Assembly (NCBI GenBank): GCA_018398765.1 | Contig: JAHBMJ010000372.1 | Location: 1 to 49,041, forward strand | DNA from: Chromera velia | Lineage: Eukaryota | Length of the DNA: 49,041 bases | Direction of reading: 5' to 3' | Shown: positions 6,109 to 45,577 of the stretch, piece after piece | Layout: each line of letters opens with the position of its first letter | Position numbering within the stretch: position 1 is the stretch's first letter | Program-made: the position numbers and the translations under genes | The notes under the pieces: generated by a model | Databases searched by the model: none | What the model saw: the letters and a program-made list of their open reading frames with translations, nothing else | Told to the model about the DNA's origin: nothing

Positions 6109-8724
6109 TCTGCTTGAATGTGCACCTGTTGCGGTAGTCTTCTTCTCATGTTTTGGAGAGTCTCGAACCTTATGTGGAGATTCTCTCTCTTTTTTTGTCT
6201 CTCTCATTGTCATGCAAGAGCTCCGATTCTGGTTCCCGTAGAATCAAGTGTGCTCATAGTAGTTTCTTTTTTCTTTGCTAATCATGCATGGAGTAGATGA
6301 TTCTTCTTTCTCTGCATGAGTTGGAAGAGTCTGACGCATGAATGGATGACGCTTTTTTGTCAGCTGAGTGACCGTTGATTGAGAATTTTTTTTTTCCACG
6401 CATGAGCTTCACTTGAGGGTCGATCAGTCGAGAAATGAGCATTCTGACATGCAGCATGATCAATCAGACGCATGCATCTGCACGTGAGATTGCACTCCGC
6501 TTCGTCATTTTGCCTTTGCTTGATTGATCCTTCGACTGAGCGTCCTTTCATCAGAGCGCCCATCCATTTCTCTCCTCTGCGGTGGGCTGCTGCCAACGGT
6601 CAATAGATCGGTCAAATGATTGGTCGAGACGACTCTGTATGCAGTGGTTTCGTATGGCTTTTCACCCTTCCCCTTCGTCTTCAGACTGTGGTTTTCTTTC
6701 TTTCATTGTCCCAAATTGTCACTTCGAATCCGATCGAAATAAACTCGTCGAGAAGCAAAGACTAGGCACCGGCGTTAAGAGTTACTTTGATGGCTTGAAA
6801 TGAGGGTTTATCTACTAATTAAAGTCTAATTTACATTTTGAAAAGCAGCTTCCTTGAACAAGTAGTAACCGTAATATGTTGGGCTGCTTCGCGGTCTAGC
6901 GTAACCGTTATAAATCGCCGCACCTTCGGCGTGCTTTGATAAATAACCGTTATACAGCCCCAAGCCGTGCACACTCCTGTTTAAAACAAAGTTTTAAGCT
7001 TATACCAGTTGTTAAAATCTTGCAGTTTAGCTAGATCAGAGATAAGAGTTTGTCCGCCTGGACTCTGCCGGCTTGGCGGATGCCGTGGCGGCGTGGCCCT
7101 CGTAGCCGCCTGCAGAGCTAGCCGTCTGGGGATGTACGCCACTGCGCTTGCATCATATGATCATGCCTTGTATATAAACCTTCGGCGCCAGCTTCGACGC
7201 CTCAAGATGTATGGTGATTGACGATCTCTGGCATGAACATGGGCTGCTGGGAGCACGGCTTTACTCTAGCAAAGCCAACTTCATTCATTCATTCATTCAT
7301 TCATAAATTTTTGATACGTATGAGTTACTAGCTGGGTTACTCGCTAGGTTACTAGACTATAGTTACTAGACGACTTAATTAAGGAATCGGGATAAAATTG
7401 CTGCAGGGTCATACAAACTGCACTCATACATATGCACTCCTTCTGTCTCTGAGTCACTCACTGTGCATGACCAAAGAGAAACTGTTCGATCTACATGGGG
7501 GGGGGGGCCAACCACGTCTCGATGCAAGCATGATAGTATTGTATAGAATGACACTCTATGTACGTTTTGGGAAGAAGAGGAGGAGGGGGCAACCACTAAT
7601 ACGGGAGGGCGGGGCCATGCTAGGGCAACTCCTAGGACAACTCTAGGGTCAGCTGTGTGAAACCCAGTGGCTTTAACGCACTAACGTGGAATACAACATC
7701 AATAGTTATACACTGCATTTTTTCAAGTATTTTTTATTAACAGTTTCAATTAAATTTAATACAGATTTACTATAGTAAAAGCAATAAATCCATACAAGTA
7801 CTATGCACTAAATCGAGATCTAGATCGAGATGACCACCGTTCTTTGGTTAGTTGCTGTAGTGGTTCAATGTCATACGTTTGAATTCATTGAAAAGTTTAT
7901 AGAACCTGCATGATGTTGATTAAATGCGGCTTCCTTCTTTCTCTCCCTTGCTCTATCGAAAGAAATTCAATGAAGCCGGTGCGCACAAAAAGAACGAATC
8001 ATCAATCGAGGTATACCTAAAGAAGGGAACTGCCGTTCTCGTTCATGACCTCCCCCCCTTCAAGACGTTTGACCGATTCCGTCGGCAGCCCTTCCATTTT
8101 GTTTATAAAATCTGAAAATTCGGATCGTTTCTTCAGGCCTGACTCCAGGCCTGACTCTCTCGATCGATTTTTGAAGTCCAACTAAACAGAACAGACGAGA
8201 TGCCGCACCAGTTCAGAAAGAGGAAAATGAATAGAGGAGGAACCGGCAACTTGGGAGAGAGTAACGGACTGAGTAAAGTCATTTGATCGATCCATCACTT
8301 CATTCGTCCAAGGAGTCAAGCCGATCCCAAGATCAAACAGCGCGAGGGAAGAGAGAACGGAGGCATGATCATACAATGCAGCACAGTACAGTACAGTACA
8401 GGAGAAGAGAAGAGAAGAGAAGAGAAGAGAAGAGAGAGGGTCGACTTCAAAGTCGACCGAAAGTACGCCTTTTCCCTTCTACAGCTTCTTCCCAGCAACA
8501 GCAGATAGAGCTAAAGGGGAACCAAACCAAACCCCTCCCCTCCTACCCCCAGCCCTTCCCCACAGTTACCCCGTCCCCCGAGGGAAGACATTCATTGATA
8601 TTCTTTTGTACACGCAGAGAGAAGGCAAGAAAAGAGAAAATCAGCCAGTGTGGACCCATCTTTTCCCCTCTTCACTTCCTCTCCACATAAATGCATGCAT
8701 TTCAGTAGTGCCCCAGCTCATTCC

Positions 8725-9308
8725 TCATGACCCGAATGCCGGGGCGAAAAGCGGGCCGGTCCCCGAGGAGGACGGGGGGGGGAACGGGTGGAGAGGGCCC
8801 AGGGAGCCCCATTGCAGGATTGGGGACACGTTCACGTTCAGAGGACTCTGGTTGTTCTGTCCAGGTCCCGTCTGAGTCTGCTGCTGGAGCGAGGGGGGGG
8901 GCTGCGGTTGAAGGGGGGCAGCGCTTCCCAGTCCACCCAGAGAACCTAGAGGGGGGGCAATGGGCGCCCCCATCGCGTTCAGAGACGGGAGGCGAAGACC
9001 GGAGCCAGAGGCGCACCACGCAGCTTCGACTGATTCCCGTGGCTGGGCGGGTCGTGTCTCGATCCACACGCGTACCTGCAGGCACGCACGCAGGCAGGTG
9101 CACGTACGTACACAGGGACACACAATTTCATCATACGGAGGGGTGTGGGGAAAGAGAAGGCAAAAAAGACAGGAGGATATGTCTCCACAAACAAACTGCC
9201 CACCTTCCTGCCTATGTGTACGTCTGAATCGCGGATCCCTCGGAAAGAAAGCGAACAAACGTCTCTTTCCGGCCTGTCTTGTGTGTGCGTGTGTGCGTGC
9301 GTGCGTGC

Positions 9309-9364
<56 letters not shown>

Positions 9365-9457
9365 AAGTATGACTCACATACCTTGAGGATTTTGTCCGGA
9401 AATCTGTTCAAAGTTCGCTGTAGCTGGGATCCCTGCAAAGTCTGCTCCCACCCCCAT

Positions 9458-9491
<34 letters not shown>

Positions 9492-10151
9492 GGGGGGGGG
9501 GGGNGGGGGGGGGGGGGGGAATTGTTCTTAAATTTTCTCTGCAGGGAAGCACTGGGGCAGCTCCACAATGGTGGCAGGTTAAATAGAAGAACACGAAGGC
9601 GGCAGCGAAGAAGGTGACGAAAGCAAAGGAGGGCAGGAAAATCATCCCATCACGTTTCGAGGGTTCGTTCCTCAACCACCCACTCGAACGACCAAACAAA
9701 AACCCCAACAGACCCATGCACAAACCAACCCGTCTGCCAACTCAGCCAAGGGCCTCCACTCGTTTTGGACCCTCTGCACCAGCGGAAATCCTTCCTCGCC
9801 CCCAGGTCCGAGAGTCTCCAGAGAAAATCTGCATGCAGGCAGGCATGCTCGCTCTCATTCATTTTTCATTTCAGTCATTAGTTCGCAAGACGACAGACAG
9901 AGAGGGAGGAGGCGGAAATCAGTATTGAAAGAAAGTCACCATCAACATGAAGATCAGATGTGCGCTGCAAGGCGTTCAAACAATGCCTGAAAGAGAATCA
10001 ATGGAGGCCTCCCCCAACGCACCAAAAGAAAGCACCAACAACGCGATCTGATGGGATGGACCTCCGTTCGAGGCGGACACAAATGAATGCATGGAGGGGG
10101 CGGAGAGACATGCGGTAGAAAAAGAAAGGAGCGGGGGGAGGATCAGACGGG

Positions 10152-10192
<41 letters not shown>

Positions 10193-13100
10193 GAAAAGAG
10201 AGACCCTCAGATAGACTCCCAATCGCTCTTTTCTCTCCTCTCCTCTTCTGACCTGTATTCTTCGTTTCTCGCAGCGAGCATGGATGTTTGAGCCGATTCT
10301 CCGGCGGTGCGAAGGAAGAGAGAGAGCCAGCCTGGACAAACGGTACCGTTCTGTGCGGAGAGCACGAAGGTCAGACCCTGCAAGCAATCAAAGAGAAGAG
10401 AAGAGAAGAGAAGAGAAGAGAGGAGCAGAAAACCAGGGAGGAGAGCAAATACATCCAAATGGAAGGGTTACATGCATACGACAAACAAATTAAGTGTGTA
10501 TGGCAGCAACACATACAACTGCATGGAATTTTCTTTCCTGACACCCTTGCGTCTTGTAGAAGAGCGAGTGGGAGGGGAATACAGACTGCCAAGAAAGACC
10601 GTGAAAATGCCACAGAGGTAGAAAGAAGCACGAAGTAGGCCGGTTGAGCTGGCTGGGGAGAACGGCAGGAAGGAAGAAAGAAAAGAAGAGTGAAGGAAGA
10701 GGGAAAGAAAGCCTGCCTGTTTGTCTGCCTGCCTGGCTGACTCTGTATGTGAAAGTTGCGGAGTCTCCTTCCTCGCTGTCGTCACCGGCGAACGAAGGAA
10801 AGGGCACGTCGAAGAACCGAGGGCCTCCAGCCACTGTGCGCAGTTCCTTCTCTGTCGCTGCAGACAAGAAGGGAATTAAGAAGCAAAATGAAGATTGAAG
10901 CAACCAACAAAAAGATCAAAAGGCATGTCCACGAGCATTCTCACAATTCATTCGCAAAACTGGAAAAAAGGAAGAGGAAAAGTAAATGGCATAAATACAG
11001 AAGTCCTAAAAACGGACAGGACGGGACCGAACATTCCAAAAGCAAACTAAGTCAAAAAGCAAAAATAAAAAGTAAAATCGAAGATGGGGCTCACAGACCG
11101 TCAGTCACCATACTTTTCTCTCTGGTCGGTCTCTACGAATAGCTCTCTGCCTGTTTTTTCTTCTCTCGCATCTGTGTCTTCTTCTCGATTGATCGAAGGA
11201 AGTTAGCGCATCCATCCATCCATCCATCTATCCATGTATCCATCCAGACATCTTTGATCGAGGCGTGTTGAGGACTCAGAATCCATTCTTCTAGCCGTCT
11301 CTCCATCTGTCTCTCTCTCGCGCGCGAGTGAGTGAGTGGGTGATCGGGGAATCCATTCGCATCGCATCAGCACCAATGAAGGAAGGAAGGAAGACAATGC
11401 AGCGGGCCCTTTTCTTTCTGCTCCCTTGTCTCATCGGAGTTTTTCCTTGCATGTCCGAAATCTCTCCATTTTTTCCCATCTGAAGGACCATCAGCCTCTC
11501 TTGTGCGTGCGTCATGCAAGAATCGATGGACAGGATGCGGTGGAGATGGACGGACGCGAAAATTGACGAGTCAGTCAGGGCGTCCGTGTGTCGGTATGCA
11601 CATCATCCATCATCTTTTTTGCTTCTTTCTTTCTTTTCTTCTTGCGCTCGAGCAGTCGTGGGGGGCTACTCCATTGCAGGCTGATCGTTTCCGGAGGAAT
11701 GAAAGACGAAGGAGAGCGTCAGACTGAAAGTCGGTAAGGGCGACGCTAGGAAGAAAGAGAGAGAAACGGGTCCTGTACTGAAGAAGGGGGAAGAAGGATC
11801 TGGAGTACATGACTTCGGAGCAACATTGTGCCGAGGGAGTGGGACAGAACCACTCGGGGGGGTAAGCGGCGAGTCAGCAGGTGGGCGGAACTGTCTGATC
11901 CTTTCCGTTCTGTCTCTCCATGTCCGTGTCTCTCTTTAAGTCTCTCGTCGATGATCATCCTCCCCCAATTCTCTCTCAGGATTTCCGTTCTTCTTCAGGG
12001 CACGCGATCCATCAATCGGTCAATTTCCACAATCATTCATTGAGACAGCCCCAGAATCACACAACCTGACGGTAGCCCTTGAACGAACACCCGCCCTTCG
12101 TCACCTTCGTGCTTACAGAACGGGTCCATTCCGACCATGCACCGACGATCGATCCATCCATCCATCCATGCATCTGATGCAATGCAACTGAATGGTGATT
12201 CCTCCCTCCGTCCATCAGTCTACGTCACACAGCGCTGGTTTCCCTATTGCTGGCTGTAAGAAAGAAGTCTGATAAGAAGAAGAAGAAGAACTCCATGCAC
12301 CACCATTCCTGAACCCCTTCCTTGATAGACCACGGAAGCAAGGAAGGGAATGGATGATGGAGGAAATAGACACACACCAGACCAGACCAGGCAGTCAATC
12401 CTGCACAAAAAGGGATTCTACAAGCCACAAGGGAAAAGTCAAGGGACGAAAAAGACAAAAAGAAAATAAAAAAGAGAAGAAGGAGGAAAATGCAATGAAA
12501 AGGGTCGCCCAGGGAAAAATCAGAAGATCTTTCGAAAAATGGATCGTGCACGCATCATCGTACAGCCAGGTCAAAGCACCCATAGGCGGACAACTCACTC
12601 CGAGGCACTCACTCACTCACTCACTCACCCGCCAGTCTGTCCTCCAGCTTCTTCCTCTTGGTGTCGCACTCGGCATGACGCACCGCCAACTCTTGGTGGT
12701 CTTTCTGAAAAGACATCAGAGAACAAAGAAACGAGGAAGAGAAGGGGAGCACAGCAGATTCCTTTCACTGCTGTGCAGATCGTTTCTATAGAATTATGGT
12801 ACACCGGAGAAAAGAAAACAACGAAGAGAAGCAAAAGAGCACAAACAAGCCAACGAACAAATCAGATACGACACAAAACAACGGAGACAAACCGAAGATA
12901 AAAGAGAAGAGGGGGGTTGGGAGAAAAAAAAAAGGAGAGCAAACAAAGAAACGGGACCTCATTCTTGCCCTTCATTCTTGTTGACGACGTTCCAAAAGAA
13001 AGTGCCCAACTCACCTGCAGCGCCAACAGGTGTTCTGCAACTGCCTCCTTCACGTGTGTCTTCTCATCCTTTCTCTTGAAGGTCGCGTCGCACCCTGAGA

Positions 13101-13333
13101 ATCTACAGTGAACCTGCGCGTCATTGCAAAAGCAGACTATGTGTTTTTCTTTTCTCCCTCCCTTTCTTCATATACATAACAAAGAAACAGACCGACAGAC
13201 AGGCAGACAGACCGACAGACAGACAGACTATATCGTCTTTTCCTTCCCTTTTCTTTTCCTTCAGACAGACTAGATGGTTTCAGACAGACAGACAGACAGA
13301 CAGACAGGCAGACAGACAGGCAGGCAGGCAGAC

Positions 13334-13367
<34 letters not shown>

Positions 13368-14807
13368 GCAGGCAGACGTGGACATACAGACCAACACACA
13401 GACAGAAAAGCAGGAACCTCTTGGAAGGGAACCAGACGGACGGACAGAGGGACACTTGGCCACTCTGTCCCTTGGCAGATCATGAGAAAAGAACAAGGTA
13501 GAAACGCAAGAAGAAAAGAGTGTGTGACAAGAAGCGAATGTACCAACGCACCTCCACCTCCGGACAGTCGCTCTTCTCGTGCGCCTCCACATCTCCCCGT
13601 TTCAGCCTCAGGCCGCAGCCGCTGGGGCATTTCACGATGGCGGCGGTGCAGGACAGGCTGTGCTTGTATCGGTCTGCGAATGGGTAGTTCTCCCCGCACT
13701 CCCTGAGAGCAGACGCACATCGAGGCACAGAGAGGGATCAATGGCCCAAAGAAAAAACAAAACGGCTTTCAATTCCATTGATCGTCTATCTGTATTCAAA
13801 CTTCTGATGAGCTCTCTCTTCTCTGTCCCCTCTCCCTTGCCCTCTGTCCTTCCCTTGCCCTCTGTCCTTCCCTTCTTTCGATCAATCTTCCTTATAGTGC
13901 CTGCCTGCCTGCCTGCCTGGCTGGCTGGCTGCCTGCCTGCCTGCCTGCCTGGCTGCCGACCGTGTGTGCGTTCCTCCTCTTTCCAGTTCTTTTGATAGAA
14001 TCTCAAAGCGACCCACAACCTCCATCCAACACAACAAACACATGGAGGACTGGACTCACTCACTTGCACAGGATGAGTCGTCTCTTGCACTTCAAAAGAT
14101 GTGGTGTCATCTCCTTGCTGATCTTCTCTATGTCGCAATAGGGGCATTTTTTCAGCTGCACACAAAGAATACAGGGGAAGCCCGCCGACGACGATCAATC
14201 AAGCAACTGAAGACATATACCCAAAGGGTCCCTCCCGACTGCACGTCCGCTTTCAAAGGAAAGACTTCCGAGACAAATCAGACATATTCGCGAAGAGCAT
14301 GCACACACACGTGAGAGCATCAACTCATATAACTGAGCCCATACGAGAATAAATGCGGCAAGAGCGTGTATCAAGTACCCAGCGCTCATCTTCTGACGCA
14401 AACATTTGGAAGCACGCACAAAGACTCCCAACCGAATCCCCCCCCCCCCTCCCACACGAACCAACCTCGTAGGGGCACTCCTCCTTCCTATGCCTCTCCA
14501 TTCTCTCTGCCGTGAGGGTCTCCTTGCAGCCGCGTGCTTCGTTCGGGCATTTGTACTTTATCGAGGTGTACAGATTCTTCAGAGGGCCCGACAGGGGGCG
14601 CTGCCATGGTGCGGGCTGTCTGCAGAGAGGACAGCGGACGTCGTCCTGGACGTTGTGCCATCCGTCCATGCAGGCACGGCAGGCGATGTGCTCGCAGGGG
14701 GAAATGACAGGGTCCACTGCGAGTTCGTGACAAATCATACAGTCGAAGGTGTCAAGCAACGACTGGTTCTGGGAGTCTGCTACTTCAAGTCGGTTTGCGT
14801 CTTCCAT
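8725..14807 (-). CDS. TRAF-like E3 ligase: RING, TRAF zinc fingers, coiled coil, MATH domain and P/Q-rich tail (508 aa, 10 exons)
   Basis: Exons are 14466-14807, 14064-14155, 13552-13702, 13015-13113, 12629-12704, 10742-10857, 10253-10377, 9730-9828, 9382-9457 and 8725-9075, all GT-AG and phase-consistent (1527 nt). RING: CMICHE...PCEHIACRAC...CPLCR. zf-TRAF: KCPNEARGC...H...ECPY and KCPSGCG...HEKSDCP. MATH-like motifs: FTYRGLTF, GWLSLFL, YRFSL, GWGW and KILKVRVWI. Confidence 0.85.
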
Positions 14808-15840
14808 GGTTCCTTAAGTTACTGAAAGAATCTTTGCAAGGCAAATGCTGCACTGGTCGACAGAAGTTAAACCAGAGGTGCCAGCGGAGTATATATATGC
14901 GTGTGCAGAAACAGGTGAGGCAATAGTTGCGGAAGTGCAGAGCACAGCAGTTCTGGAGTTGCGGTTTGAAAAGGGAAGAGCTGAGCACAAAAGCAAGCGC
15001 GGCGGTTTGAATGCCGACAATATGGTTTACTTCGTCGGGTGAGCTGCTCTGTGAGTCTGTGTATGCCCGTCTTCTCTCAGCAAACTGTATGAAGTAGACC
15101 GCTTTATAGAATGTTGAGTCTGAGCGCCCAAATACAGCTCAGACATACATGTTGGTCCGACGTGACACACACACCAAAAATTAATTTAATTCAATTTATT
15201 ATTAATAATATTTCCTTATACTGCGTTGTATATATTAGTATTAGTATTTTTATATAATTATTAATGTCATATGATATATAATAATGGCTGAACTGCCCAC
15301 TGAGACTCAACCGCGTCAGAGTTGCACGGTGGCGCGCCGCCACCGTGGGCGTCGCCGCATCTGACCTTCCATTTTTTTTCTGACCTTCGATCAATCTTTT
15401 TGCACACTGAGAGCCCCATGAGAGCCATTGAGAGCCCGGCTGGAGATGCACAGGCTTCATATTAATACCTCCAGCTCTCGCGATCCTCGAGCGACTTACA
15501 CTCAGAGAGGAGGTTGCGCGTTGGAGAAGAGATAAACTAGCTTGCTGGGCATCGGGGATTTGGCCTGTCCCTGAAGACTGCTTTTTTGCAATCGAGTTTC
15601 GCACGTCGTGGGATCTTTGATTGGAAAGGCCTCATACCCTGACTTTCGTTTGTTGCACTCTTGGTTCTTCCTTGTGCCACGCGTTCTCCTACTATTTTCC
15701 TCTTCTGCTGTGTTTCTCATCGATTCAGGCAATTTGTTTGGAGTTTTGTTGAGAATCGGCAAAAGATAGGAGAAAGAGATCCTGATAGAGGACCAGACTT
15801 ACTTAGAGAGACGGACACAGCACTGACCTAGCTGCAGAAG

Positions 15841-17529: not shown

Positions 17530-17568
<39 letters not shown>

Positions 17569-17854: not shown

Positions 17855-17903
<49 letters not shown>

Positions 17904-20652: not shown

Positions 20653-21340
20653 TTGATCGAAATCCGTTGGGCAGCAGCCAAAAGAGAAGGTCGTCTGTGG
20701 CAAGAAAAAGTCTGCCGCGAAGCGTCTGCAACTCGTCACGAAGCGAGAATAATACACCTGCCGAGCCAATTCAGTCGGTACCCAAGTCGCGGGTTGACTG
20801 ACGTCATGCGGATTTGCGCGCATGTCTGTCACTAGCGTTCCTTCTGCATGATTGGAGCGCTCATGCCTGGGGTTCACGACATTCCTTCTCACTTTGTTCA
20901 GACTGGGTGTGTTGCCTTCTTTAACCTCGCGCACAGCGTGGCACTGCACATTTACTCCAGCAAGGACGGCCTGCGAAGATTTGCGAATGATCCAACGATC
21001 AAGCGAGCATAGCCCAGCATGCACTTCAGCCGCGTGCTAGCAAGAGCAGCGCCAGCCAGCCAGCCAATGAAAAATGTGCCCGTAATTCATTTCTCGCAAA
21101 GGTCAGTTGTGTAGCCAAAGCGTCGGAGAGCGATCAATAAATTAACCCCGCTGCCGATCGATTGAGAAATGTTCGAGCAGCTGCATCGAGCTTGTAAATT
21201 ATTAGAATGAGTTGAAACATTGAGTTCCCTGTTTCATGAACTGCACTGCTAATATGCATAAAAAAAGTGAACATGAACTAATATATTACATATATGATTA
21301 CTAAAGCATACAACTACTATGGTGATGTCCTAGGTGATGT

Positions 21341-21590
21341 CTAGGCGACGCATAGTAGTAAAAAAAAAAAAAAAAAAATAGACATGTTAAGTTTTTTTTT
21401 TCTTTTTTAAAGTTTTTTTTTTTTTTAGTCTGGCGGTCAAAGGTTCAAACAAACCTAGCAAAGGTAGGTTTTGTAGTTAGATGTGTTTTTGTTATATGTT
21501 TGGCACTTCCAATAAAATAAAAAAAAATAAATAAAGATTAGACTTCTCAAGATTTTTCTTTTCTTTTTTTTTATCACTGTGCGCGCCTAG
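21341..21590. mobile_element. 250-bp non-autonomous MITE with CTAG termini and 8-bp TSD
   Basis: The left end ctaggcgacgcatagtagtaaaaaaaa matches the reverse complement of the right end, ctaggcgcgcacagtgataaaaaaaa. It is flanked by ggtgatgt at 21333-21340 and 21591-21598 and has an AT-rich interior. Confidence 0.8.
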
Positions 21591-23213
21591 GGTGATGTCT
21601 GATCATCATGATATTACATTATGAAACGTATAAATTTATTAAAACTCTCAGGGCCGGCTGTATTATTATAAAACGTATATGAATTATAATGTATACCTAG
21701 ACGTGATTCTGTCACATGAACTTAGACCTGTAGGTTCCTACTTCATATTCCTGCATAATCCTACATATTTCTTCATATTCCTACCCTAAATTCCTTCATA
21801 TTCCTGGCAACTTGCAGGGAAGAATCAGTGTCCATGCAAGTCAAAGTCTAGGTCAAAGTGAATGATCAACACGATGCTAGACATGATGATTACCCTAGTG
21901 ATTACCGTTAAAGTTTAACGGTTAAACTAGCCGACGTAGTAGCCGTTAAATGATCAAATACGATCATGATGCAGGTATTGTAGAGAAACACATTATCAGA
22001 GACATGCAGTGCTTAGTAGACATGCAGTGCACTAAGCACTGCATGTGATTAGTGCACTGCATGTGATGCATATAATGAGACATCAATAGCCATGCACAAA
22101 ATACAAGCCTGCGGGAGTTACAGGCTAAGTGCAAGTAAGTGCAAGCCAGATGCCGTGCCAAGCTGGCTATGGTCCATGGTGGGTGCTCTGTTGAGTGCCG
22201 CGCTCTCAGGCCACTCAATTAAGGCGCATTGAACAAACCCATCGACCATGACAGTGCGGAAACAATCCATCTTCGACTGACGTGTTATGCACAGAGATCG
22301 ATCGGTAGATCAAATCGACGGGCCAGCTTGTTGAAAGGAAGGGGGGGAAGGAACGATCGATTGGAGGAATCCAGGCCGAAAGCAGGAACAAAAAGAAGTG
22401 GAGGCAGGAGGAACGCAATTCGGAGGGTTGCGGGGAAGAGAAAAAGGGCAGGGGAGTCTAACTTCGCATGATTTGAAGTCACTCAAAGTCATTCGTCTCC
22501 TCTCTAACATGGTCTGACGCTCTCTGTCTGCTCCCTTCCTTCGAATCTCTTAACTGTCCCCCCAGCTGTCTATATCTTGCATGGCCGACATTTACATGCC
22601 TGCCGACTGTTGGTGTCGATCCAGCAGGCAGGACGTCTCTCTCAAGAGCGATGAATGCACATGCACTCTCACCCACATGAAGGACAGGAAGGAAGCGTGG
22701 AATGGAGGAAGAGGAGTGAGGAGGTGGATGGGTTGGAGAATGAGAGAGTGCATAAATGAATGAATGAATGAATGAATGAAGTCGCCGCTTTTCTTTTCTA
22801 TGCGCGCTCACTGATAGAATCGAAAATGAATCATGAGACGTGCACACGAATGGTGTGTGTCGAGTCATTGAGGTAGGTGATCAGCCGTTCCTTTTTTCTC
22901 TCTCTCTCCTTGTCCTCTTTGCTTTGTCCTTCATTCCGTCCTGCCTCTCTCCCAACACAATCACCCCCCTCCCTCTTTGACCCCCTGCTCCTCTCTCTCT
23001 CTCTTTACTTAATTGAAGGTGCTTGCCAGACAAAAAGACAGACAGATGAGCAGGTGCAGCCGAGACGAACCACACCATCTGCCTGCCTGTCTGTCTGTCT
23101 CTGCCTTTCGTTTCTTCTCCATCCTTTCTCTCCCCTCTCCTCCTGTCGATCGATGGCGTCTCCTTCCCAGCCCAACCCAGCATGCCAGCAGGCAGGCTGC
23201 CAGCCACACACAT

Positions 23214-33958: not shown

Positions 33959-34001
<43 letters not shown>

Positions 34002-34152: not shown

Positions 34153-34183
<31 letters not shown>

Positions 34184-34414
34184 GTGTCATCGCAGGACAA
34201 CGTCCGTGATAACCCCCGTGGAGACAGAGACCGCGACCGCAGAGACGGTTCCCCTTCCGACAGAGGAGGCAGAGGACGCGGTCCCCCCCCCAGGGGGGAC
34301 AGAGACAGAGATGCAGGCAGTCCTCCCCGTAGAGACGACAGAGACGCGCCGTCTCCGAAACCGGCGGAGGAGGGATGGGAAGTACAGAAGCCCAAGGGGA
34401 GAGGGAGGAAGTGA
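25808..34414 (+). CDS. EIF3A: Eukaryotic translation initiation factor 3 subunit A (1050 aa, 16 exons)
   Basis: It starts MASVLKPENALRRAQEL and includes AKDGLINYR, LRFCWECYKTTLEILRNN, EFKRLCEMLRSH, LETRLVQL, a PCI region (ARIDH), coiled coils, RVDHLVRALR and an RS/RG/RD tail. Exons are 25808-25926, 26148-26257, 26843-27018, 27301-27526, 27891-28254, 28597-28687, 29113-29234, 29543-29726, 30136-30465, 30839-31036, 31372-31633, 32199-32350, 32615-32749, 33214-33576, 33787-33888 and 34196-34414 (3153 nt, in frame). Confidence 0.95.
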
Positions 34415-35709: not shown

Positions 35710-35726
35710 CTATATGTACATATGTC

Positions 35727-35771
<45 letters not shown>

Positions 35772-35794
35772 ACGATATATACATTACGATATAT

Positions 35795-35828
<34 letters not shown>
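35710..35828. repeat. (TA)n microsatellite cluster
   Basis: Two long TA runs are directly visible. Confidence 0.95.
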
Positions 35829-35831
<3 letters not shown>

Positions 35832-37439
35832 GAGAAATGCACAGATCCCTTTTTCGGCATTCTTTGCTTCTTGCAGATTGGATAGCGCAGACATCGCTCT
35901 CTGCCTAGCTCTCTGCATTCATTCTCGGATTCATCCCGCCCCCCAGAGAGAAGCGCACAGATCCCTCTCTCTACATTGAAATTTCTTTGCTTTCTTCTTA
36001 TAAACCTAAATATAAACCTTTTTATTTTCCTTGCATCTTTAATTTCTAACTTTCAGCAAAAATAAAAAATAAAGAGACGTATGTGTTGTTAGAACTTCAT
36101 GGCCCTCATGTGGGCATTCCCTCATGCAGATAGTCAGCCTTCAGACGGTCTATGTTCGTACACCTCACCTGGAGGAGTGAGTGTCTCAGTTCATTGCACC
36201 TGACTCCATATTCTCCCATCGCTTTGTTTCTTTGTATGAAATTCAATATGCATCTACATATGACTGTAGTCCATGCATGCATATAATTAATTGCCTGTTT
36301 AATTACTTCCAGAATAATTCGTACGCCACACCGCGAAAGCGCTCTGCATGCGCGCGGCCATATACAGACTTGTATGGCCCACCCGCGTCCATCACTATCA
36401 AAGTCATAAGCTCATTTAGAATTTCACTCTTTCATCTAAGTCTAGATCTAAAGTGAAGTCTAGAGCTAAGTCTAAAGTGAATCTTTAGATATTAATCCTA
36501 TCCTATCCTATCCTATCTAGGCCCTGCACTAGCTAAATAAAAAAAGAAAGAAAAAAAAAAATTGCTAGTTTTTTATTTTTTTTTTATTTATCCACTAAAC
36601 AACAGTTCTAGCAACAGTTACTTTTTATGCACTGGTGTTGTGTGCCGCCCTAGTGTGGGTCCCACACGGCTGCCCAGATGACCCCAGCATGTCCATGCCC
36701 TGCAGTGGTGCGGGCCCTGGCGTCAGTGCATTTATTCCATCCGCTGCATGCGCACTAATAATTCAGGTTGAGCACAATTCTCTCTGCTCTTGTTCTCCTG
36801 ACTGATCGATGAAATCTGATCTTTCCTCCTAGCTGACACACTTCACGTGACTGGATCAGTCTGCACATGCAATCTACAAGAAGAAGCCATCTGCAAAGCG
36901 GATTCTTTACGACGTTGTGTAACATATCGCTGTCACATCGGGGCACAGCCTTCAAATGAGGGACACGTTTCATCTGTACATGACCGCAGAGGCGGAAAAA
37001 GAGATCGAGGGTGGAGTTAGAAACTGATGGCCGCCTTCCTCACGGGTTTGGCTACTGCCGGCCTGTCAATGAACATGTGGAAAACGCCGGTGGAGAGGGA
37101 GAGGGGGGAGCAGAGGGGCGGTAGAGGAGACAGAGGAGGCAGAACAATTTTGGGAGGGGCTGTTCTTTGTCGGAGGAGAATTCATCAAGACAGTGTACGA
37201 GTGCGATCAGACGCCGAAAGAATTTTCCACCACCGACATCAAAACGATCCACGTCAGTCCGTTCGACTCAGTCAGTCACTGACAGGCAAATGCAGGCAGG
37301 CAGTGGCAGATAGGCACGCAGGCAGAAAAATGAAATGGTTTGTTCTCCCCCACTTTCTCTCTTGAAATTCCCCCTTCTTTTCTTTTGCAAATAACATAGA
37401 CAGACTCAATCTGGCTGACAAGGGGAATGGAAAGCAGCC

Positions 37440-39012
37440 GAACTGCCCGATCCTGCCTGACTTTTTGATGGACTGTCTGTCAGTGACTGCGTGGCAGTGA
37501 ATGCCTGATTGACTGAAAGCCCGACTGCCTGCCTGACTGCTTGAGAGACTTGTCTCCCTGACTATCTGACAGACGCACTGCTTGACTGCCTACCGGTCTG
37601 CCTGCCTGCCAGGTCCTGCCAGCCTAACTAATTGACTAACTAAGTGCCCCCCTGTCTGCCTGTCCGCCTGCATGCCTGACTGACTGACTAACGGACTGCC
37701 TGCATACCTGACTGGCTGTCTGGCTGCCTGCCTGACTGACTAACATACTGCCTGACCGAGTGAATGACTGCCTGACTGACTGACTGAGTGACTTGGCAGT
37801 GCCTGCCTTACTGACTGACTGCCTAACTCCCTGCTAGACTCCCTGACTGTCTGATTAACTAACTGCCTGACTGAGTGACTGACTGCCTGATTGCCTGACT
37901 GACTCACTGACTGACTGACTGCCTCTCTGACTGATAACTGCCTGACTGAGTGACTGACTGCCTGACTGACTGGCTGACTAACTGACTGACTAACGTACTG
38001 CCTGACCGAGTGAATGACTGCCTGACTGGCTGCCTCACTGACTGCCTGCCTTACTGACTAACTGTCTGACTGACTGACTGCCTCACTGACTGACTGACTG
38101 ACTGACTCACTGACTAACTTTCTGACTGAGTGAATGACTGCCTGACTGACTGACTACCAGTGGCTGCCTCACTGACTGCCTGCCTTACTGACTGACTGTC
38201 TGTCTCCCTGACTGACTAGGTGACTGACTGACTGACTAACTGCCTGACTGAGTGGCTGACTGCCTGACTGACTGACTGCCTGCTAGGACTGCCTGACTGA
38301 CTAACTGCCTGCCTGATTGCCTGACAGACTTGTCTCCCTGACTCCCTCACTATCTGAAACGGACCGCTTGACTGCCTACCGGTCTGCTTCTAGGGCCCTA
38401 GTCTAGGGCCTGCCCGCCTGCCTTACTGACTAACTGCCTGCCTGCCCGCCTGCATACCTGACTGCGTACCGCTGCGTGCCTGACAGACTGCCTGCCTGCC
38501 TTACTGACTAACGCTGACTGAGTGACTGACTGTCTGATTGCCTGACTGACTGACTGACTGCTTTTTTGACTGAGTGACTGACTGTCTGATTGAGTTATTG
38601 CCTGACCGAGTGAATGACTGCCTGACTGCCTAACTAACTGACTGACTGACTGCCTGACTGACTGACTGTCTAACTCCCTGACTGAGTGACTAAGTGACTG
38701 ACTAACTGACTGACAGAGTGACTGCCTAACTGACTGACTGACTGATTGACTGACTGCTTGATTGCCTGACTGACTGACTGGCTGCCTCACTGACTGCCTG
38801 CCTTACTGACTGAGTCAGACTGCCTAACTCCCTGACTGACTAAGTGACTGACTGAGTCAGACTGACTAGCTGCCAGTGACTGATTAACGCTGACTAACTG
38901 ACTGACTGACTGACTCAGTCTGACTGACTGCATGACTGACTGACTGACGGAGTGACTGCCTGCCTGCCTGCCTGCGTGAGTCAGCGTGACCAACTAACTG
39001 CCTCCCTGCCTG
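37440..39012. repeat. 1.6-kb degenerate (CTGA/CTGC)n tetranucleotide satellite with higher-order duplications
   Basis: Continuous gact/gcct tetramers. Longer blocks recur, for example gacttgtctccctgact...cttgactgcctaccggtctgc at about 37547 and about 38327. Confidence 0.93.
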
Positions 39013-40605
39013 CTTGGTGAGCGACGACAGACAGAAATAGGCACAAGAAAAGCTAACACGCGAATGAAGAGGGGAGGGGGGCAAGGGCAAGGGTGTGAGG
39101 ATGCATATAAGAGAGAGACTGACACGTTGCATACCTTGTGTGTGCATGCATTCCTGCAGCGATGGTCGACATGGGGGGCGAGCAGAATGGGGACTGCAGA
39201 GGTTCTACTTCTCTGCCTCAGCGACGCTCCGGAACTGCCTGCCATCGCTCTCGCCAAGGCCGATGGATCAGTAGACATGGAGGGGATGAGAAGGGCTCTA
39301 GGAAGGGCTCTCTCGATGGTCTCCAGGCCTTCCTGCGAGACCGAAGGGTAAGTGGGTCATTTATGACTTTGCCGATGACCAAAGCTCTCCCATTAATTTT
39401 CCGTTCCTTCCCGTGCATTCATGATATTTGATCATTGAACTGTGAGAATCTCAATTAATTGCACATGCAATCGTGTTACTTCTCTTTGTGTGCCTGCTGA
39501 CAGAGATCTGTTTTGACTCTTCATTTCGGCTGGACAGGAAGAAAGGTGTCATAACTCGGATCAAAAGTCCCAAGATGACACCATATGCAGCTGCCATACC
39601 ATAGGACCCCAGTCTCTGTTCGACGCTGTAGGAGGACGAGTGACACAGATTCATTCAAACTGACCTGATGCTTTCCTCAAATGCAGGATCCCATTGGCAC
39701 AGATGGCGGTCGAACGAGACCCTCTCGCACAGGCAGTGAGGCTGGCGGCACAGGACAGTACGCCTCCAGGTGACGTCCTCTTGGTTTCAAAGTCGGACAC
39801 AACTAAGACGTTCCACAGAGAGGCCCGTCAGCCCTCAAGATTCGACTGGGAGCTTCCCCTCGAACCCCGCCGACCAGTGCCGCGTGCACCTGCACAGCCC
39901 GGAAGTGTCAGGATTTTCGACTGCAGAAAGGTGAGTGATTTGGTATTGTCAAGAGGTGTGAGAAACTGAAATGCTGCATGGGCTAGGAACAAGAGAATTC
40001 AAATCTGACCGATTTGATGTAACAGTTCAAAAGTGAGCACGCAGGAGGAACCTTGCCACATGCAGACAGACTGTGTGGACTTTCTCTTCCACAGACAGGC
40101 AGGCAGGCCCAGAGAGAGAAAGAGGGAAAGAGATGCAGAAAAACGGACACACGTACGCACACCGTCCTCTACCCCCGTGAACGTACTCCCCTGTCGCAGA
40201 TTGCACCCTGGTTTGCCTTCTCTCCTGTCGCTGCCGGAAGGTGTACTGCGTCTCTGACTACTGGAGAAGCCCGACTTGAAAATGGAACTGCATGTGCTTC
40301 TCCTCTTCTCAGGCCCGAAACTTTTGTGATGAAAAGTTTTGTGTTAGTTTCGTTGCTTTGCGAAAACCCGGACACAGAAGTTCTCCTCTTCACTTCCTCG
40401 GTAACTTCCCGCCATGCAGTTCGAAAACTGGGGGACGATGGAGGAAGGGCGCTTCCTAAGTCTGGCCTTGAATGTCTCTTTTTGAGCGTTCTTTCTTTTC
40501 TTGCTCGCAGTCGGGCAGCTGCTGAGCGGCAGGTGAGACTCTGAAGTCACACTCAGCCTGGGTGTTGCAGCCTGGCCTGCGGTTGCGTGTGACGTCGTCT
40601 TGAAA

Positions 40606-41450
40606 TTAGACGAGCTTGAACTTCTCAAGAGACTCTCTCAGGGGGTCGCCCTCCACCGCATCGAAGCCCTGCGCCAGGACAATCAAGTCGGGTTTGAAGA
40701 CACCACGATCTCTTGGAGGCAGTAGTGCAACGGAGCCGATTTGCATGCCCTCCCCCTCATTCACCATCGTCCCGTCCTGTTTGCTTCTCCCTAGCTGTTC
40801 TGTCTCACCATTCCAGAGCCCTCCACATTCAGACCTTCTGGGCGTTCGTCCATCCACCCATCCGCTCATCCATCAACCATCTGTCTGACAGTGTGCTTAA
40901 AAGGAGACGAACTAGGAGACGAAGAAGGAGATCCCCTCTGCTGTCCTTGGAAAAGCCGGAAGGCACCTTTCTTGAAAAGGTGGGCGCGGGCAGAAATCGA
41001 ACGACCAAAAGACCAGCGGGATCGCACACCAGGAAGCTGGAGACGGGCGCTCTCCTCGTCCGTTGAGTGTTCACAGAGCTCTTGCTGTCTTCACGTACGG
41101 AGCCCGTCTCCTGCAACAGAGAAAGATACACTTTAATTGTCTCCTGGGTCGAAAGGAAAAGCAAAATTCAAAACGGCAAGAAACAGCAGAGATCAGACTT
41201 ACCAACCGTCTCATTGTCCTTCTCCACAGATGCTGAGAGATTGCCGGGATCAATCCACCCAGGGGTGTGACTCTCGGGGTCACCACTTCGTCCGCAGTTG
41301 ACACCGGTGCAGGAGAAGAAGCTCACATCATCATCAGAGCACACCTTGTCCGGCAGCATCTGTATATATTTTGAATGATCATTCTGAGCAGTGTCCGAGG
41401 AAACCTGCCTCTTCCCATGAGTAGAAAGGGCCAACTTATTTCTTTCACCT
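40606..41450 (-). pseudogene. Histone deacetylase-family fragment (degenerate)
   Basis: FKPDLIVLAQGFDAVEGDPL (40639-40698) matches the HDAC motif F.PDlvlvsaGFDa..gDPL. Exon-like segments lie upstream. A stop follows shortly after the motif and no D.HhGnG motif was found. Confidence 0.5.
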
Positions 41451-42275
41451 GCATCTTGACAAGCGAAGGCAAAAGGGCGAGAAAAGATGACACAGGTGTC
41501 TCTGGTTAGAAAAAGCAGACGCAAGTGTCTCAAACGCAACACGAGCAGCATCCTCAAGGAAAGAGCACAGGAGCGACCCTGGTCACAGTATCTTCAGTGT
41601 TCACAAAAGAATGAGCTCTTAGTGTTGGCCAACAAGCTAGAGCCAAAAGACGTTGGGTGATGTTTGGTATATAATGTTTGCTGTTCAAACGGTGTTCAAC
41701 GGAGTCGCATGCAAGTGTTGCGTGAAAATATGTAAACTTGCGCGCTGTTTCTGTATGTTTCTGTAACCTCGAAATCATTGAAACTGCACATGTCATATAT
41801 CGATACATTGAAACTGCCTTGCATCGATCTGCCTTGCAGCATCTTGCAGCCTCTACCTCACTCACTGTTCTTGTTATTCAGACCTCCATGGATTCCATAG
41901 CACAAAATAGCACAAATAGGGCGCACTATGGCGCACTTTGAATGGGCACGTCGACCTGTATGGCGTCGCGGGTTCGCCGTCTCCTAGCTGTCTATCGACC
42001 GTCTCCTCAAGTCGATCTTGCTTCGAACGGATTTCGATTGAATGGTTGAAATTTGTAGAAACTCTCCGGTGACTCCGCCTGTGTGGTCAGTACAGAGTGT
42101 TTGAAATAACCTTCCCGGCTTCTTGGCTCACGCGAGCTTGTGCTGAGCAGTTTCTGTCGCTTCAGATCCAGACGGGCTTTACGAGCTATAGACAGGTTAA
42201 TTTTGGTTGCCTCTCTTAAATGGCCTTTGAGTCTGTAGGCGTGAACGGGTGCACCGCTCCGGTGTACTGATTCTC

Positions 42276-44264
42276 ATGTTGAGGAGAAGTCACCCGGCAG
42301 ATGCGCGGGTAGTTGCACACCTGGACATTGACTGCTTTTTTGCCCAGGTCGAAGAGCTCGCTCACCCTGAGCACGCGGGACAGCCGCTCGGTGTGCAGAA
42401 TGCGGAAGTGGCTTCAGTCAACTATGAGGCCAGGCGTTTTGGTTTGTTCAACAGGATTTCAGTCTCTGAAGCGTTGAGGAGGTGTCCGCACCTGGTTCTC
42501 ATCCGAGGTGACAACTCTGAAAATGGAATGCAGAAGTATCGGAAGAAGTCCCTCGAAGTTCTCCGAGTGATCTTCCGTCTCCTTCAGAACACCACCTCTG
42601 TCCGGGATCCCGCTGTAAATATTTCTTTCTCTTCTTCTTCTTCTTCTTCTTCTTCTTCTTCTTCTTCTTCTTCTTCTTCTTCTTCTTCTTCTTCTTCTTC
42701 TTCCTCCTCCTCCTCATGCTCCTCTGCCTCCCCTTCCTCCTCCTCCATCTCAGCGTCTTTGCCTTCAGCCCCCCCAACCTCCGATCAGCTTCCTCTGCCA
42801 GACATTCTGCCGTGCTCCTTTGCTCCTTGTCTGGTGGAGAAGAACAGCTTCGACGACTTCTTCCTCGGCCTCACTGATCAGACTATCACACCACAGCAGC
42901 AGCAGCAGCAGCAGGAGCTGCAGTCTGAGACCTTCAAAAGAGAAGAACCAACGGGGAACTTGCGAGGGGTGCAGTGCCAAGCGACGCTGTCACAGGGGCA
43001 GCGGGGTGTTTTTAAGCACAGCACTGTGGATGGGCAAGGGACAAATGTTCCTTCTTTGACTGAGCAAGGACTGAACGTCCTGGGCATTCTTGAAGACGAG
43101 AGCGAGGCAACAAGCTCGAGCCTCTCTCACCCGGAAAAACTCTTGGTTGCTTCGCACTGGGTGCGTATGCTGAGAGAAAAGATCCGACAGGAAACGGGTC
43201 TCCGAGTGTCTGCCGGCATCGGGTCCTCTCGGTTGGTTTCCATGCTCGCCTCCAAAAGAAGCAAACCAAACGGCCAGACGTGCGTTCTCCCCTCATACCA
43301 GCGTTCGCTCCTGTCGGAGACCCCTATTGAATCTCTGAAGGGGGCAGGCCAACCGTCATTGAAGCTTCTTACCTCCGAGAAGCGCGATGCATTGGCCAAA
43401 CTCCGGCAGTCAGACAAGTCTCTTCGTACACTCGGAGACATTCTCCGAATTCCCCCTGCAGCTCTGCGCAGTCTAGTAGGGGTTGATGTAGCAGCATTAT
43501 TGCTGAACCTAGCACAGGGAAAGGTTCCGACCGAGCCTCCCATTTCTCCTTTCTCCCCCCCACTTACGCTCTCTGTCGAGCTCTGTGTGCGTCCCTCGCC
43601 CTTCGAACCTTTGGAGGCTATCGAGGGGGTGGAGACAAATCTGAACCGTCTCGCACAGATGATCTCTAGCCGTGCTTATGAAGATTCGCGCACGTTCGGC
43701 TCGCGTGCCGTTGACAGACTGACAGTGAAGTGGAAGGAATTCGGCAACTCTGCAAGAGAAGTACACCAGCGCTCCATAGCGTGGCCCCCTTCCCTTTCAG
43801 GGGACCTCGCGAAGAATGGAGGGAGAGGTCGAGGAGAGATATTAAGAGGCCCATCAGCAGCAGCCTCCGGGTCGCAGAGCGCCTCTCTGGATCCAGTTGC
43901 TCTTTCTAGAGCCGCCTTCCAGGTTTTTAGATCTGCTTTGCAGGGGGCAGAGAAGTTTCGTCTCTCCCGAATGGTGCTCTCTCTCCGGTACCGTGCACCG
44001 CCTCGCAGCCCGCCCGCTCTTCCAGTGCCCACCGTGCCACTGGCAGACACACAAAGACCTCTCGCTGCCGGTGTTGCAACGATTGCTTCAGGCTCCTTTC
44101 GTGTTGGAGTGAAAAGAGGCAACCTGACACGAGAGAGCGCTACTGCAGAAGAGCCTTTTGCAAGAAACGTAGAAAGAAAAAAGACAGTGGCTCCAGTTCA
44201 ACCGAAGGAGCGAGGACTTAAGCAGACTACACTCAAGAATCTCTGGCAGAGATCGGGTAAATAA
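42276..44264 (+). CDS. Y-family (UmuC/DinB/IMS) translesion DNA polymerase, Pol iota-like, 662 aa, apparently single exon
   Basis: Motifs are VVAHLDIDCFFAQVE, HPEHAGQPLGVQN, VNYEARRFG, ALRRCPHLVL, KYRKKS, EKNSFDDFFL, GLRVSAGIG and SKRSKPNGQT, with a C-terminal PIP-like QTTLKNLW. The first ATG is at 42276. Confidence 0.92.
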   Translation: MLRRSHPADARVVAHLDIDCFFAQVEELAHPEHAGQPLGVQNAEVASVNYEARRFGLFNRISVSEALRRCPHLVLIRGDNSENGMQKYRKKSLEVLRVIFRLLQNTTSVRDPAVNISFSSSSSSSSSSSSSSSSSSSSSSSSSSSSSCSSASPSSSSISASLPSAPPTSDQLPLPDILPCSFAPCLVEKNSFDDFFLGLTDQTITPQQQQQQQELQSETFKREEPTGNLRGVQCQATLSQGQRGVFKHSTVDGQGTNVPSLTEQGLNVLGILEDESEATSSSLSHPEKLLVASHWVRMLREKIRQETGLRVSAGIGSSRLVSMLASKRSKPNGQTCVLPSYQRSLLSETPIESLKGAGQPSLKLLTSEKRDALAKLRQSDKSLRTLGDILRIPPAALRSLVGVDVAALLLNLAQGKVPTEPPISPFSPPLTLSVELCVRPSPFEPLEAIEGVETNLNRLAQMISSRAYEDSRTFGSRAVDRLTVKWKEFGNSAREVHQRSIAWPPSLSGDLAKNGGRGRGEILRGPSAAASGSQSASLDPVALSRAAFQVFRSALQGAEKFRLSRMVLSLRYRAPPRSPPALPVPTVPLADTQRPLAAGVATIASGSFRVGVKRGNLTRESATAEEPFARNVERKKTVAPVQPKERGLKQTTLKNLWQRSGK

Positions 44265-45077
44265 CATGTGTATGATGACAGTGCATCTATCAATCGAATT
44301 CAGAGTAGTACAGAGTTGTAATATACACGAATGATCACGAGTACCGACGGCTGGGCTTTGCTGACAGCAGCTGACTTCCCTAAGACAGTGATTCATTGAA
44401 TTTTTTCTAGAAAACATTAATAATTCCCTATAGTTGAGTTTATTTTTAATTGTCATCAGTAATTTTGACCTACTACTTCAATAGTATATACAGATCAATT
44501 CTTTTAAATAAAAATGTAATTAACTTCTATCTTAATTATTCAAGATTTTATCTAGATTCAAACGTTAATTTCTTCCCAGCATTCTTCAAAGTTCCAAACT
44601 GTCGGATAAAGCCATTAAACATGCAAGTAAGGCATGTTATACAGAACTTGAACTTTGTGTGACCCATGTCTCATTTCTTGTTTACTCTTTTTAATACTGA
44701 TTCTATTATGAATCACTCAAACCAGAAAGAAAGCAACTAAGTCGGAGCAAGCCAAGTTATGGGCTTTTTGTCATATTTCCGAGCCACTCTTGTCTTGATT
44801 GATATTTGTATTCCTCTTTCTGATCGAATCTGCTTGAACCGTTTCATCGGATTCCATGCATGCAGAGTCCCAGTGAAGAAAACGAATGCATACATAGACA
44901 CCAACAGACTTAATCGGGGATCAAACATGAAAAGCAGGGGCTAGTGTGAGCATAGAAAACACACACACAATTATGATATCCAGGGACTCAACAGCAAGGC
45001 AAGAAGCGTTTTTGTTTCTGTGTGTGTCCGAGTCACTCATCTGGAGGAACGGGTAAAGAAAAGTGAGACCGATATTG

Positions 45078-45222
45078 TTTGTCTGTCTGTCTGTCTGTCT
45101 GTCTTTGTCTGCCTGTCTGTCTGTCTGTCTGCCTGTCTTTGTCTGTCTGTCTTTGTCTGTCTGTCTGTCCACCTGTCTTTGTCTGTCTGTCTGTCTGTCT
45201 GTCTTTGTCTGTCTGTCTGTGA
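45078..45222. repeat. (GTCT)n microsatellite
   Basis: Directly visible. Confidence 0.93.
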
Positions 45223-45577
45223 GTCAGTGGTTTTGGATTTCGGACAGAAAAACGAAAGGAACAGCCGATGACAAAAAGAGGACAAGGCAAAGAAACATAC
45301 TATGAAGTGACCCGTCAAGCAACATGAGAAGCACACAGATTGGCAGTCTGCCACACTGACTTCAGATAGGCCGATAGAGATGCAGGCAAACGCATTGGTG
45401 GACAGGCAAACAATGACAGACAGTCAGGCGGACATAGAATTGGACAGACAGACAGATTCTATGCTCTTTTCATTTCTCCTCTCTTCTCCTTTTCAAGTAT
45501 ACACAGATAGGGAGATAGGATGTACTGCTCTTCACTAGGCTCTTCATTTCTCTTCTGCAATTCTTTTCGTTTTCCGA

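What the first reader, a model, noticed from the sequence alone, without database searches (positions are those of the whole stretch)
7324..45546. Window-wide TSD-CTAG-TSD scars: footprints of a CTAG-terminated transposon family
Seen: perfect direct repeats separated by exactly CTAG occur at 7812-7831 (atcgagat), 21322-21341 (gtgatgtc), 21840-21859 (gtcaaagt), 21887-21906 (tgattacc), 35897-35916 (ctctctgc), 36600-36619 (caacagtt), 37826-37845 (actccctg), 39290-39309 (gaagggct), 40904-40923 (gagacgaa) and 45527-45546 (gctcttca). There are 9-bp versions at 38274-38295 (gactgcctg) and 38389-38410 (tctagggcc), and one-mismatch cases at 7336, 7624 and 21869. The repeated words are unrelated to each other and only the spacer is constant. 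I found none in the exons of intact genes. Known: Merlin/IS1595 elements make 8-9 bp TSDs. Inference: elements with CTAG at both ends (the MITE at 21341-21590, the terminus at 4680) are lost by joining through the shared palindromic CTAG, leaving a stereotyped +12/+13 bp scar. At this density it would be a major source of genome micro-structure. I know of no description of it.
Basis: partly seen in the sequence, partly recalled or inferred. Interest (0 to 1): 0.92.

Follow-up and report, generated by a model that had tools for sequence, protein, structure and literature searches.

The report
CTAG scars from Merlin-like jumping genes
This stretch of algal DNA carries, about every 4 kb, an 8-9-base word repeated on either side of the same four letters CTAG; these are likely scars left when a Merlin-like jumping gene cut itself out, and they would give a first clue to how that little-studied transposon family cuts DNA.

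Summary
Of 83 CTAGs, 10 have a perfect 8-bp flanking direct repeat and 2 a perfect 9-bp one (0.012 expected each by permutation). None occur at other lengths, and 8 more are decayed.

The window is Chromera velia-like. It holds a 250-bp CTAG...CTAG MITE with a perfect 8-bp duplication. It also holds a broken IS1595/Merlin-type transposase with five close paralogs, followed by a tandem array ending in CCTAG. All candidate ends read CTAGG, the Merlin GG plus three bases.

Best reading: cut-and-paste excision with the second strand cut 3-4 nt inside the element. The flanks keep self-pairing CTA(G) overhangs and rejoin as word-CTAG-word. This is Sleeping Beauty's footprint logic; my searches found no report of it for Merlin.

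Not shown: genome-wide frequency (no genome held), empty/filled/scarred alleles of one site, or that this transposase made the scars. Read-laying found no second CTAG terminus, and a second MITE-like piece lacks an 8-9-bp duplication.

One +12 scar likely sits in frame in a coding exon. Verdict: new variant of a known kind.

The parts
7812..7831 (.). scar, 8-bp word-CTAG-word, perfect
21322..21341 (.). scar, perfect 8 bp; overlaps the duplication of the MITE beside it
21840..21859 (.). scar, perfect 8 bp
21869..21906 (.). two overlapping scars (one-mismatch at 21869, perfect at 21887)
35897..35916 (.). scar, perfect 8 bp
36600..36619 (.). scar, perfect 8 bp, inside the second MITE-like piece
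37826..37845 (.). scar, perfect 8 bp; unscarred versions of the same unit at 38663 and 38817
38208..38227 (.). one-mismatch scar inside the CTGA microsatellite (weak, repeat context)
38274..38295 (.). scar, perfect 9 bp; unscarred unit at 38638 (1 mismatch in 29)
38389..38410 (.). scar, perfect 9 bp; an 84%-identical paralogous block at 37546-37650 has the word once and is 8 bases shorter here
39290..39309 (+). scar, perfect 8 bp, in frame (reads RALG-RAL) in predicted exon 39160-39347
   Evidence: exon predicted from splice sites and phase only
40904..40923 (+). scar, perfect 8 bp, in a 113-codon open frame (GDELGDE); exon status uncertain
45527..45546 (.). scar, perfect 8 bp
7320..7369 (.). 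stack of scars: one word four times, spacers CTAG, a decayed CTGG and a 6-bp CTATAG variant at 7349
7620..7654 (.). stack of decayed scars (one and two mismatches)
36434..36481 (.). stack of decayed scars (two mismatches), 12-bp period
21341..21590 (.). 250-bp MITE, CTAGG...CCTAG ends, about 12-bp imperfect inverted repeats, perfect 8-bp duplication at 21333-21340 and 21591-21598
36517..36653 (.). second MITE-like piece with CTAGG...CCTAG ends and similar A/T tracts but no 8-9-bp duplication
   Evidence: (similarity judged by eye)
744..1337 (+). 5' half of broken IS1595/Merlin-type transposase (in-frame TGA; first catalytic D in VEADG)
   Evidence: E 3e-14 to full-length relative P0009
1984..2787 (+). 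3' half of the transposase (second D in RDGG, E in HAEAR; in-frame TAG stops); end read by eye
4313..4680 (.). 4.1 x 90-bp tandem array ending in CCTAG; candidate right end of the transposase-bearing element
   Evidence: link to the transposase is by proximity only

Best explanation
The word-CTAG-word repeats are likely excision footprints of a cut-and-paste DNA transposon with CTAG at both ends and an 8-9-bp target duplication, probably moved by an IS1595/Merlin-type transposase like the broken one in this window. Shown: the repeats; their length of 8 or 9 only; one filled CTAG...CTAG element with a perfect 8-bp duplication; the transposase homology; CTAGG at all five candidate ends. Inferred: insertion duplicates 8-9 bp of target. 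On excision the transferred strand is cut at the element's tip and the other strand 4 nt inside (or 3 nt inside, at CTA|GG, just before the Merlin GG). Each flank then keeps a 3' CTAG (or CTA) overhang that pairs with its twin and is ligated, leaving +12 or +13 bp. A +12 scar keeps the reading frame unless TAG falls in frame. Repeated use of a site, or slippage on the scar, builds 12-bp stacks.
For: Enrichment of about 800-fold and strict 8/9 length, the duplication length given for Merlin (PMC8101967). A constant spacer equal to the ends of the filled element. Aged scars with 1-2 mismatches. Unscarred paralogous units for 37826 and 38274. Transposase relatives hit DDE_Tnp_IS1595 and NF033547; five C. 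velia paralogs, three long ones 94-95% identical to each other, imply recent spread. The catalytic core is compact (D275-E320 in P0009), and a low-confidence model (pLDDT 56) best matches Mos1 and integrases rather than hairpin-forming enzymes. Almost no longer spacers built from element ends were found, unlike the mixed P-element junctions (PMC2895639 tables).
Against: Only one filled element with an 8-bp duplication, and it sits in a scar hot spot. The second CTAGG...CCTAG piece has no such duplication. Laying two DNA runs on 4592-5700 showed no second copy ending in CTAG with a different flank, and the internal units of the array read TTAG. The MITE ends match the 4680 end only in CTAGG. 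The window protein and its C. velia paralogs have no Pfam or NCBIfam hit themselves; of 6 relatives with a Pfam hit, only P0012 reaches the cut-off. Described Merlin ends start with GG, not CTA. No genome-wide or allelic test was possible.
Confidence: 0.62

Rival explanations
1. The scars are footprints of CTAG-ended elements, but the enzyme belongs to another 8-9-bp superfamily (P, hAT, Mutator, Zisupton; duplication lengths recalled) and the Merlin-type gene is a bystander.
For: The MITE ends do not resemble the 4680 end beyond CTAGG. One search gave no second CTAG terminus. P elements have a palindromic 4-base end (CATG) and an 8-bp duplication.
Against: The only DDE transposase I identified in the window is IS1595-type (14 ORFs scanned, not all 187). 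An 8 plus 9 mix is the Merlin range. The array 1.5 kb behind the gene ends in the same CCTAG. hAT footprints are flank-derived palindromes (recalled).
Confidence: 0.15
2. The element is lost by host microhomology-mediated joining between the two terminal CTAGs after breaks deeper inside (long overhangs as in P, or internal breaks), not by ligation of short overhangs.
For: CTAG is a direct repeat at both ends of the filled element. P excision leaves 17-nt overhangs that are joined at microhomologies.
Against: P junctions in that paper are heterogeneous, whereas here the spacer is uniform. A scan of spacers up to 30 bp starting with CTA or ending in TAG found only four longer ones outside the listed scars, none carrying CTAGG end sequence.
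Confidence: 0.1
3. The filled element is really a GG...CC MITE that targets TA or CTAG (IS630/Tc1-mariner or piggyBac type) and fell into an existing scar. It then says nothing about the scars, which come from an element not seen here.
For: 12-16 of 83 CTAGs here are scars, so hitting one is not rare. The piece at 36517-36653 has CTAG flanks without an outer duplication. The single locus is formally identical under both readings.
Against: It needs two unrelated systems and leaves the constant spacer unexplained. The left flank of 36517 is an (ATCCT)n tract that may have overwritten a duplication.
Confidence: 0.1
4. Chance, microsatellite noise, or a library or assembly artefact.
For: Four sites lie in a degenerate CTGA array.
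Against: Permutation and spacer controls. Decayed and nested scars cannot come from library chemistry. 9 of the 12 perfect scars lie outside that array.
Confidence: 0.02

Closest known systems
Merlin superfamily / IS1595 family (PMC8101967; passages, section 11 part 2 and supplement hits read)
   Same: IS1595-type DDE core in relatives, 8-9-bp duplication, imperfect inverted repeats, internal tandem repeats; C. velia is listed in that paper's supplement as having hits on short contigs.
   Different: Ends are CTAGG, not GG; the MITE's inverted repeats are about 12 bp, under the 24-462 bp range; that paper's main text has no mention of 'footprint'.
Sleeping Beauty / Tc1-mariner footprints (PMC7351741 and PMC2874221, passages)
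   Same: The non-transferred strand is cut inside the element, and the leftover bases end up between two copies of the target duplication.
   Different: TA duplication and non-complementary 3-nt CAG overhangs there; here 8-9 bp and a self-complementary spacer, hence one uniform scar (inferred).
Drosophila P element (PMC2895639, passages and junction tables)
   Same: 8-bp duplication and a palindromic 4-base tip (CATG); end sequence is left on the flanks.
   Different: 17-nt overhangs and mixed junctions; unrelated transposase.
piggyBac seamless excision (PMC7351741, passages)
   Same: Complementary 4-nt overhangs rejoin the donor site.
   Different: There the 4 bases are the target (TTAA), so nothing is left behind. 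Here they appear to belong to the element and a net +12/+13 bp remains.

Membership tests
Merlin (IS1595-related) | DDE_Tnp_IS1595 domain | tested here: met
   Through homology only: P0004 (E 2.9e-17 to the window protein), P0007, P0009-P0012 hit PF12762, mostly under the cut-off; four hit NF033547 under the cut-off. The window protein itself has no hit.
Merlin (IS1595-related) | D, D, E triad | tested here: met
   VEAD, RDGG and HAE align to P0009 D198, D275 and E320.
Merlin (IS1595-related) | 8-9-bp target duplication | tested here: inconclusive
   Met for the MITE and the scars. Not testable for the transposase-bearing copy, whose left end is not in the window. Absent at 36517-36653.
Merlin (IS1595-related) | Ends begin 5'-GG | tested here: not met
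   All five candidate ends begin CTAGG. The three bacterial IS1595-like copies fetched have G-rich ends without CTAG. So this is filed as Merlin-like, not canonical Merlin.
Merlin (IS1595-related) | Inverted repeats of 24-462 bp | tested here: not met
   About 12 bp and imperfect in the MITE; unknown for the large element.
Tc1/mariner-IS630 | TA duplication | tested here: inconclusive
   The scars duplicate 8-9 unrelated bases (not met), but both MITE-like pieces can be read as GG...CC inside CTA/TAG.
Tc1/mariner-IS630 | Inner cut on the non-transferred strand | not testable with these tools
   Needs biochemistry; inferred from the scar.
P element | THAP/P transposase | tested here: inconclusive
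   None among 14 ORFs scanned; the genome was not available.
piggyBac | 4-bp target duplication, seamless excision | tested here: not met
   Scars add 12-13 bp with an outer 8-9-bp repeat.

The most novel reading that the evidence does not exclude
A CTAG-tipped Merlin lineage has stamped tens of thousands of uniform +12/+13-bp scars through the Chromera genome (about 47,000 if this window's 12 perfect scars are typical of 193.6 Mb). The scars record how Merlin/IS1595 enzymes cut DNA, add four-residue in-frame duplications to proteins, seed 12-bp minisatellites, and form a datable fossil record of excisions.
Probability: 0.4. Interest if true: 0.85.

Novelty: new variant of a known kind. Interest (0 to 1): 0.66.

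Why it matters
I found no account of how Merlin/IS1595 transposases excise. A uniform scar gives a testable prediction: a mariner-like cut 3-4 nt inside the end. Footprints are normally too short to recognise without an outgroup. These identify themselves, so one regular expression could count and date past excisions genome-wide. A frame-keeping +12 scar is also a direct route from transposon traffic to small peptide duplications.

Tried and rejected
No whole genome is held, so the genome-wide regex could not be run.

No read data cover the MITE or any scar. The one successful lay (4592-5700) showed about 10x single-copy depth at the start of the last array unit, falling to single-copy past 4676-4680, but no second CTAG terminus. 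The local array explains part of the depth, and contigs show presence, not absence. The run search listed no holder on record as RNA, so expression of the scar-bearing exons is untested.

Homolog search with the exon at 39160 found 0 of 179 candidates. Atlas searches gave nothing usable. The word-indexed search with the transposase half found 0 of 554. P0005 and P0008 are ankyrin and amidase proteins and were dropped as spurious (2 of 7 hits). Loci of relatives: none in metagenome or viral contigs; three distant bacterial copies have no CTAG ends or scars.

In-window empty paralogs were found for 3 of 16 scars (37826, 38208, 38274), all in the CTGA array, so this is modest evidence; 13 had none. 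The C. velia contigs in the Merlin paper's supplement are short coding fragments without ends. The genome paper's main text has no 'Merlin' or 'CTAG'; 12 of its 16 supplements were searched without a hit, and four were not searched. The tandem at 8134-8157 (spacer CCAG) was rejected as a plain 12-bp duplication. A 5'-truncated retroelement or Helitron origin was rejected because the spacer is constant and the duplication only 8 or 9 bp (reasoning, recalled properties).

Full report
Observation. The window has 83 CTAGs. Ten are flanked by a perfect 8-bp direct repeat and two by a perfect 9-bp repeat; none at 4-7 or 10-13 bp. A permutation null expects 0.012 of each; one-mismatch cases are 4 vs 0.061 and two-mismatch cases 4 vs 0.50. 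Against other 4-mer spacers the non-simple rate is 8 of 83 vs 8.4e-4 (P 9e-15). The repeated words are unrelated, with at most a weak G-first/C-last lean (12 of 28 symmetrised). The 16 best scars fall in five 5-kb bins. None lie at 10-20 kb or 25-35 kb, where only 18 CTAGs occur. Several are stacked or nested (7320-7369, 7620-7654, 21869-21906, 36434-36481). Aged and nested copies argue against a library artefact.

Host. The closest proteins to the window's transposase are annotated in Chromera velia; P0013 is 93% identical. The genome is 193.6 Mb with about 30 Mb of transposable elements (PMC4501334, passages).

Filled element. A search of all CTAG pairs for a flanking 8-9-bp repeat with at most one mismatch gave six pairs. 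One has a perfect 8-bp repeat and clearly matching ends: 21341-21590. One other is the same locus read from the neighbouring scar, one is inside the 36434 stack, and three are multi-kb pairs with dissimilar ends. A second piece, 36517-36653, has the same CTAGG...CCTAG ends and similar A/T tracts (by eye; the automatic alignment was poor) but no outer duplication. This counts against the simplest reading and keeps alive the rival that these are GG...CC elements inserting at TA or CTAG.

Transposase. Two ORF pieces at 744-1337 and 1984-2787 carry in-frame stops and are split by about 650 bp. The 3' half found 7 proteins among 1.84 billion. One is a C. velia paralog, three hit DDE_Tnp_IS1595, one (P0006) belongs to the same alignment, and two were spurious. 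The 5' half matches the full-length relative P0009 (E 3e-14). The D, D, E residues align. P0009, P0011, P0012 and P0004 hit NF033547 below its cut-off; the C. velia proteins do not. A low-confidence model of P0009 (pLDDT 56) matched Mos1 and retroviral integrases best. With 45 residues between the second D and the E there is no room for the insertion domain seen in piggyBac. This favours a non-hairpin cut, by inference. Behind the gene lies a 4.1 x 90-bp array ending in CCTAG at 4680; internal tandem repeats are reported for Merlin (PMC8101967). Laid contigs show about tenfold depth in the last unit and single-copy depth after 4680, with unit variants not present in the window, but no second terminus with CTAG. 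The link between gene and terminus therefore rests on proximity.

Pre-insertion states. Searching the window for the scar-less form found matches for 3 of 16 scars, all in the CTGA array. The unit around 37826 occurs unscarred at 38663 and 38817. An 84%-identical block paralogous to 38389 has the word once but is 8, not 13, bases shorter.

Mechanism. An 8-9-bp duplication of arbitrary words needs a staggered integration. A constant spacer equal to the filled element's tips must come from the element. Sleeping Beauty cuts the non-transferred strand 3 nt inside, and the leftover overhang ends up between two target copies (PMC7351741, passage; PMC2874221, passage). With CTAG tips, a 4-nt inner cut leaves self-complementary overhangs that ligate directly. 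A 3-nt cut (CTA|GG) leaves CTA ends that pair through TA and give the same product after fill-in. The sequence cannot separate the two; one CTATAG spacer at 7349 leans slightly to the second. P elements leave 17-nt overhangs and mixed junctions (PMC2895639, passages and tables), unlike the uniform spacer here. The cut positions are inferred, not shown.

Exons. Three segments (39160-39347, 39687-39930, 40200-40532), each bounded by CAG and GTAAGT/GTGAGT/GTGAGA, join into 255 codons without a stop. The 39290 scar reads RALG-RAL in the first of them; 40904 reads GDELGDE in another open frame. In both, CTAG falls as CTA|G, avoiding the stop. No homolog or RNA confirmed the gene, so this is a prediction.

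Membership and literature. Described Merlin elements have GG tips, 24-462-bp inverted repeats and 8-9-bp duplications. The tips here fail the GG rule by a three-base extension, so I call the system Merlin-like, not canonical Merlin. C. velia appears in that paper's supplement only as 'short contigs'. Searches of the open library: Merlin+transposon+CTAG+target site duplication, 2 papers (1 listed, a fission yeast genome; listing only); Chromera+transposon+Merlin, 0; CTAG+excision footprint+transposon+TSD, 1 maize Helitron paper (listing only); Merlin+transposon+TIR+CTAGG, 0. Searches were seen as listings and showed no matching description. PMC2872659 was seen as abstract only and not used. Subscription papers and Repbase were not searchable, so absence from print is not proven.

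Verdict. The pattern is real and striking. It is best read as a uniform excision footprint (about 0.85 for footprint in general, 0.62 for the Merlin-type short-overhang version). It is a new variant of a known mechanism. Its weight depends on the genome-wide count and on the ends of other copies, neither of which could be tested here.

Noticed in passing
window 4313-4680: Each junction of the 90-bp units reads CCTC-TTAG-GAGG, one base from a perfect palindrome, as if a right and a left end were fused through one (C/T)TAG. It could be a head-to-tail concatemer joined by the same sticky ends.
   Followed up: partly
window 410-739: A purine tract followed by a 315-bp segment ending in CA lies just before the transposase ORF; it looks like the 3' LTR of a retroelement interrupting the element's 5' part. 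No second copy is in the window.
   Followed up: partly
window 3180-3830 (+): 216-codon ORF without a Pfam hit between the transposase and the array; possible second or cargo gene.
   Followed up: partly
window 21905-22075: Dense short palindromes and direct repeats next to the scar cluster; possibly templated repair insertions or footprints of another element.
   Followed up: no
window 4930-6108 (+): NB-ARC gene; contigs of two probable RNA runs cover it, and run X3 differs at six bases and one deletion, suggesting another strain.
   Followed up: partly
window 42231-44264 (+): Intronless-looking Y-family polymerase (IMS domain) with a poly-serine tract.
   Followed up: no
P0009, P0011, P0012: 405-407-aa IS1595-like transposases on 2.3-2.5-kb environmental contigs form a divergent clade with the Chromera family; their ends could not be fetched.
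   Followed up: partly
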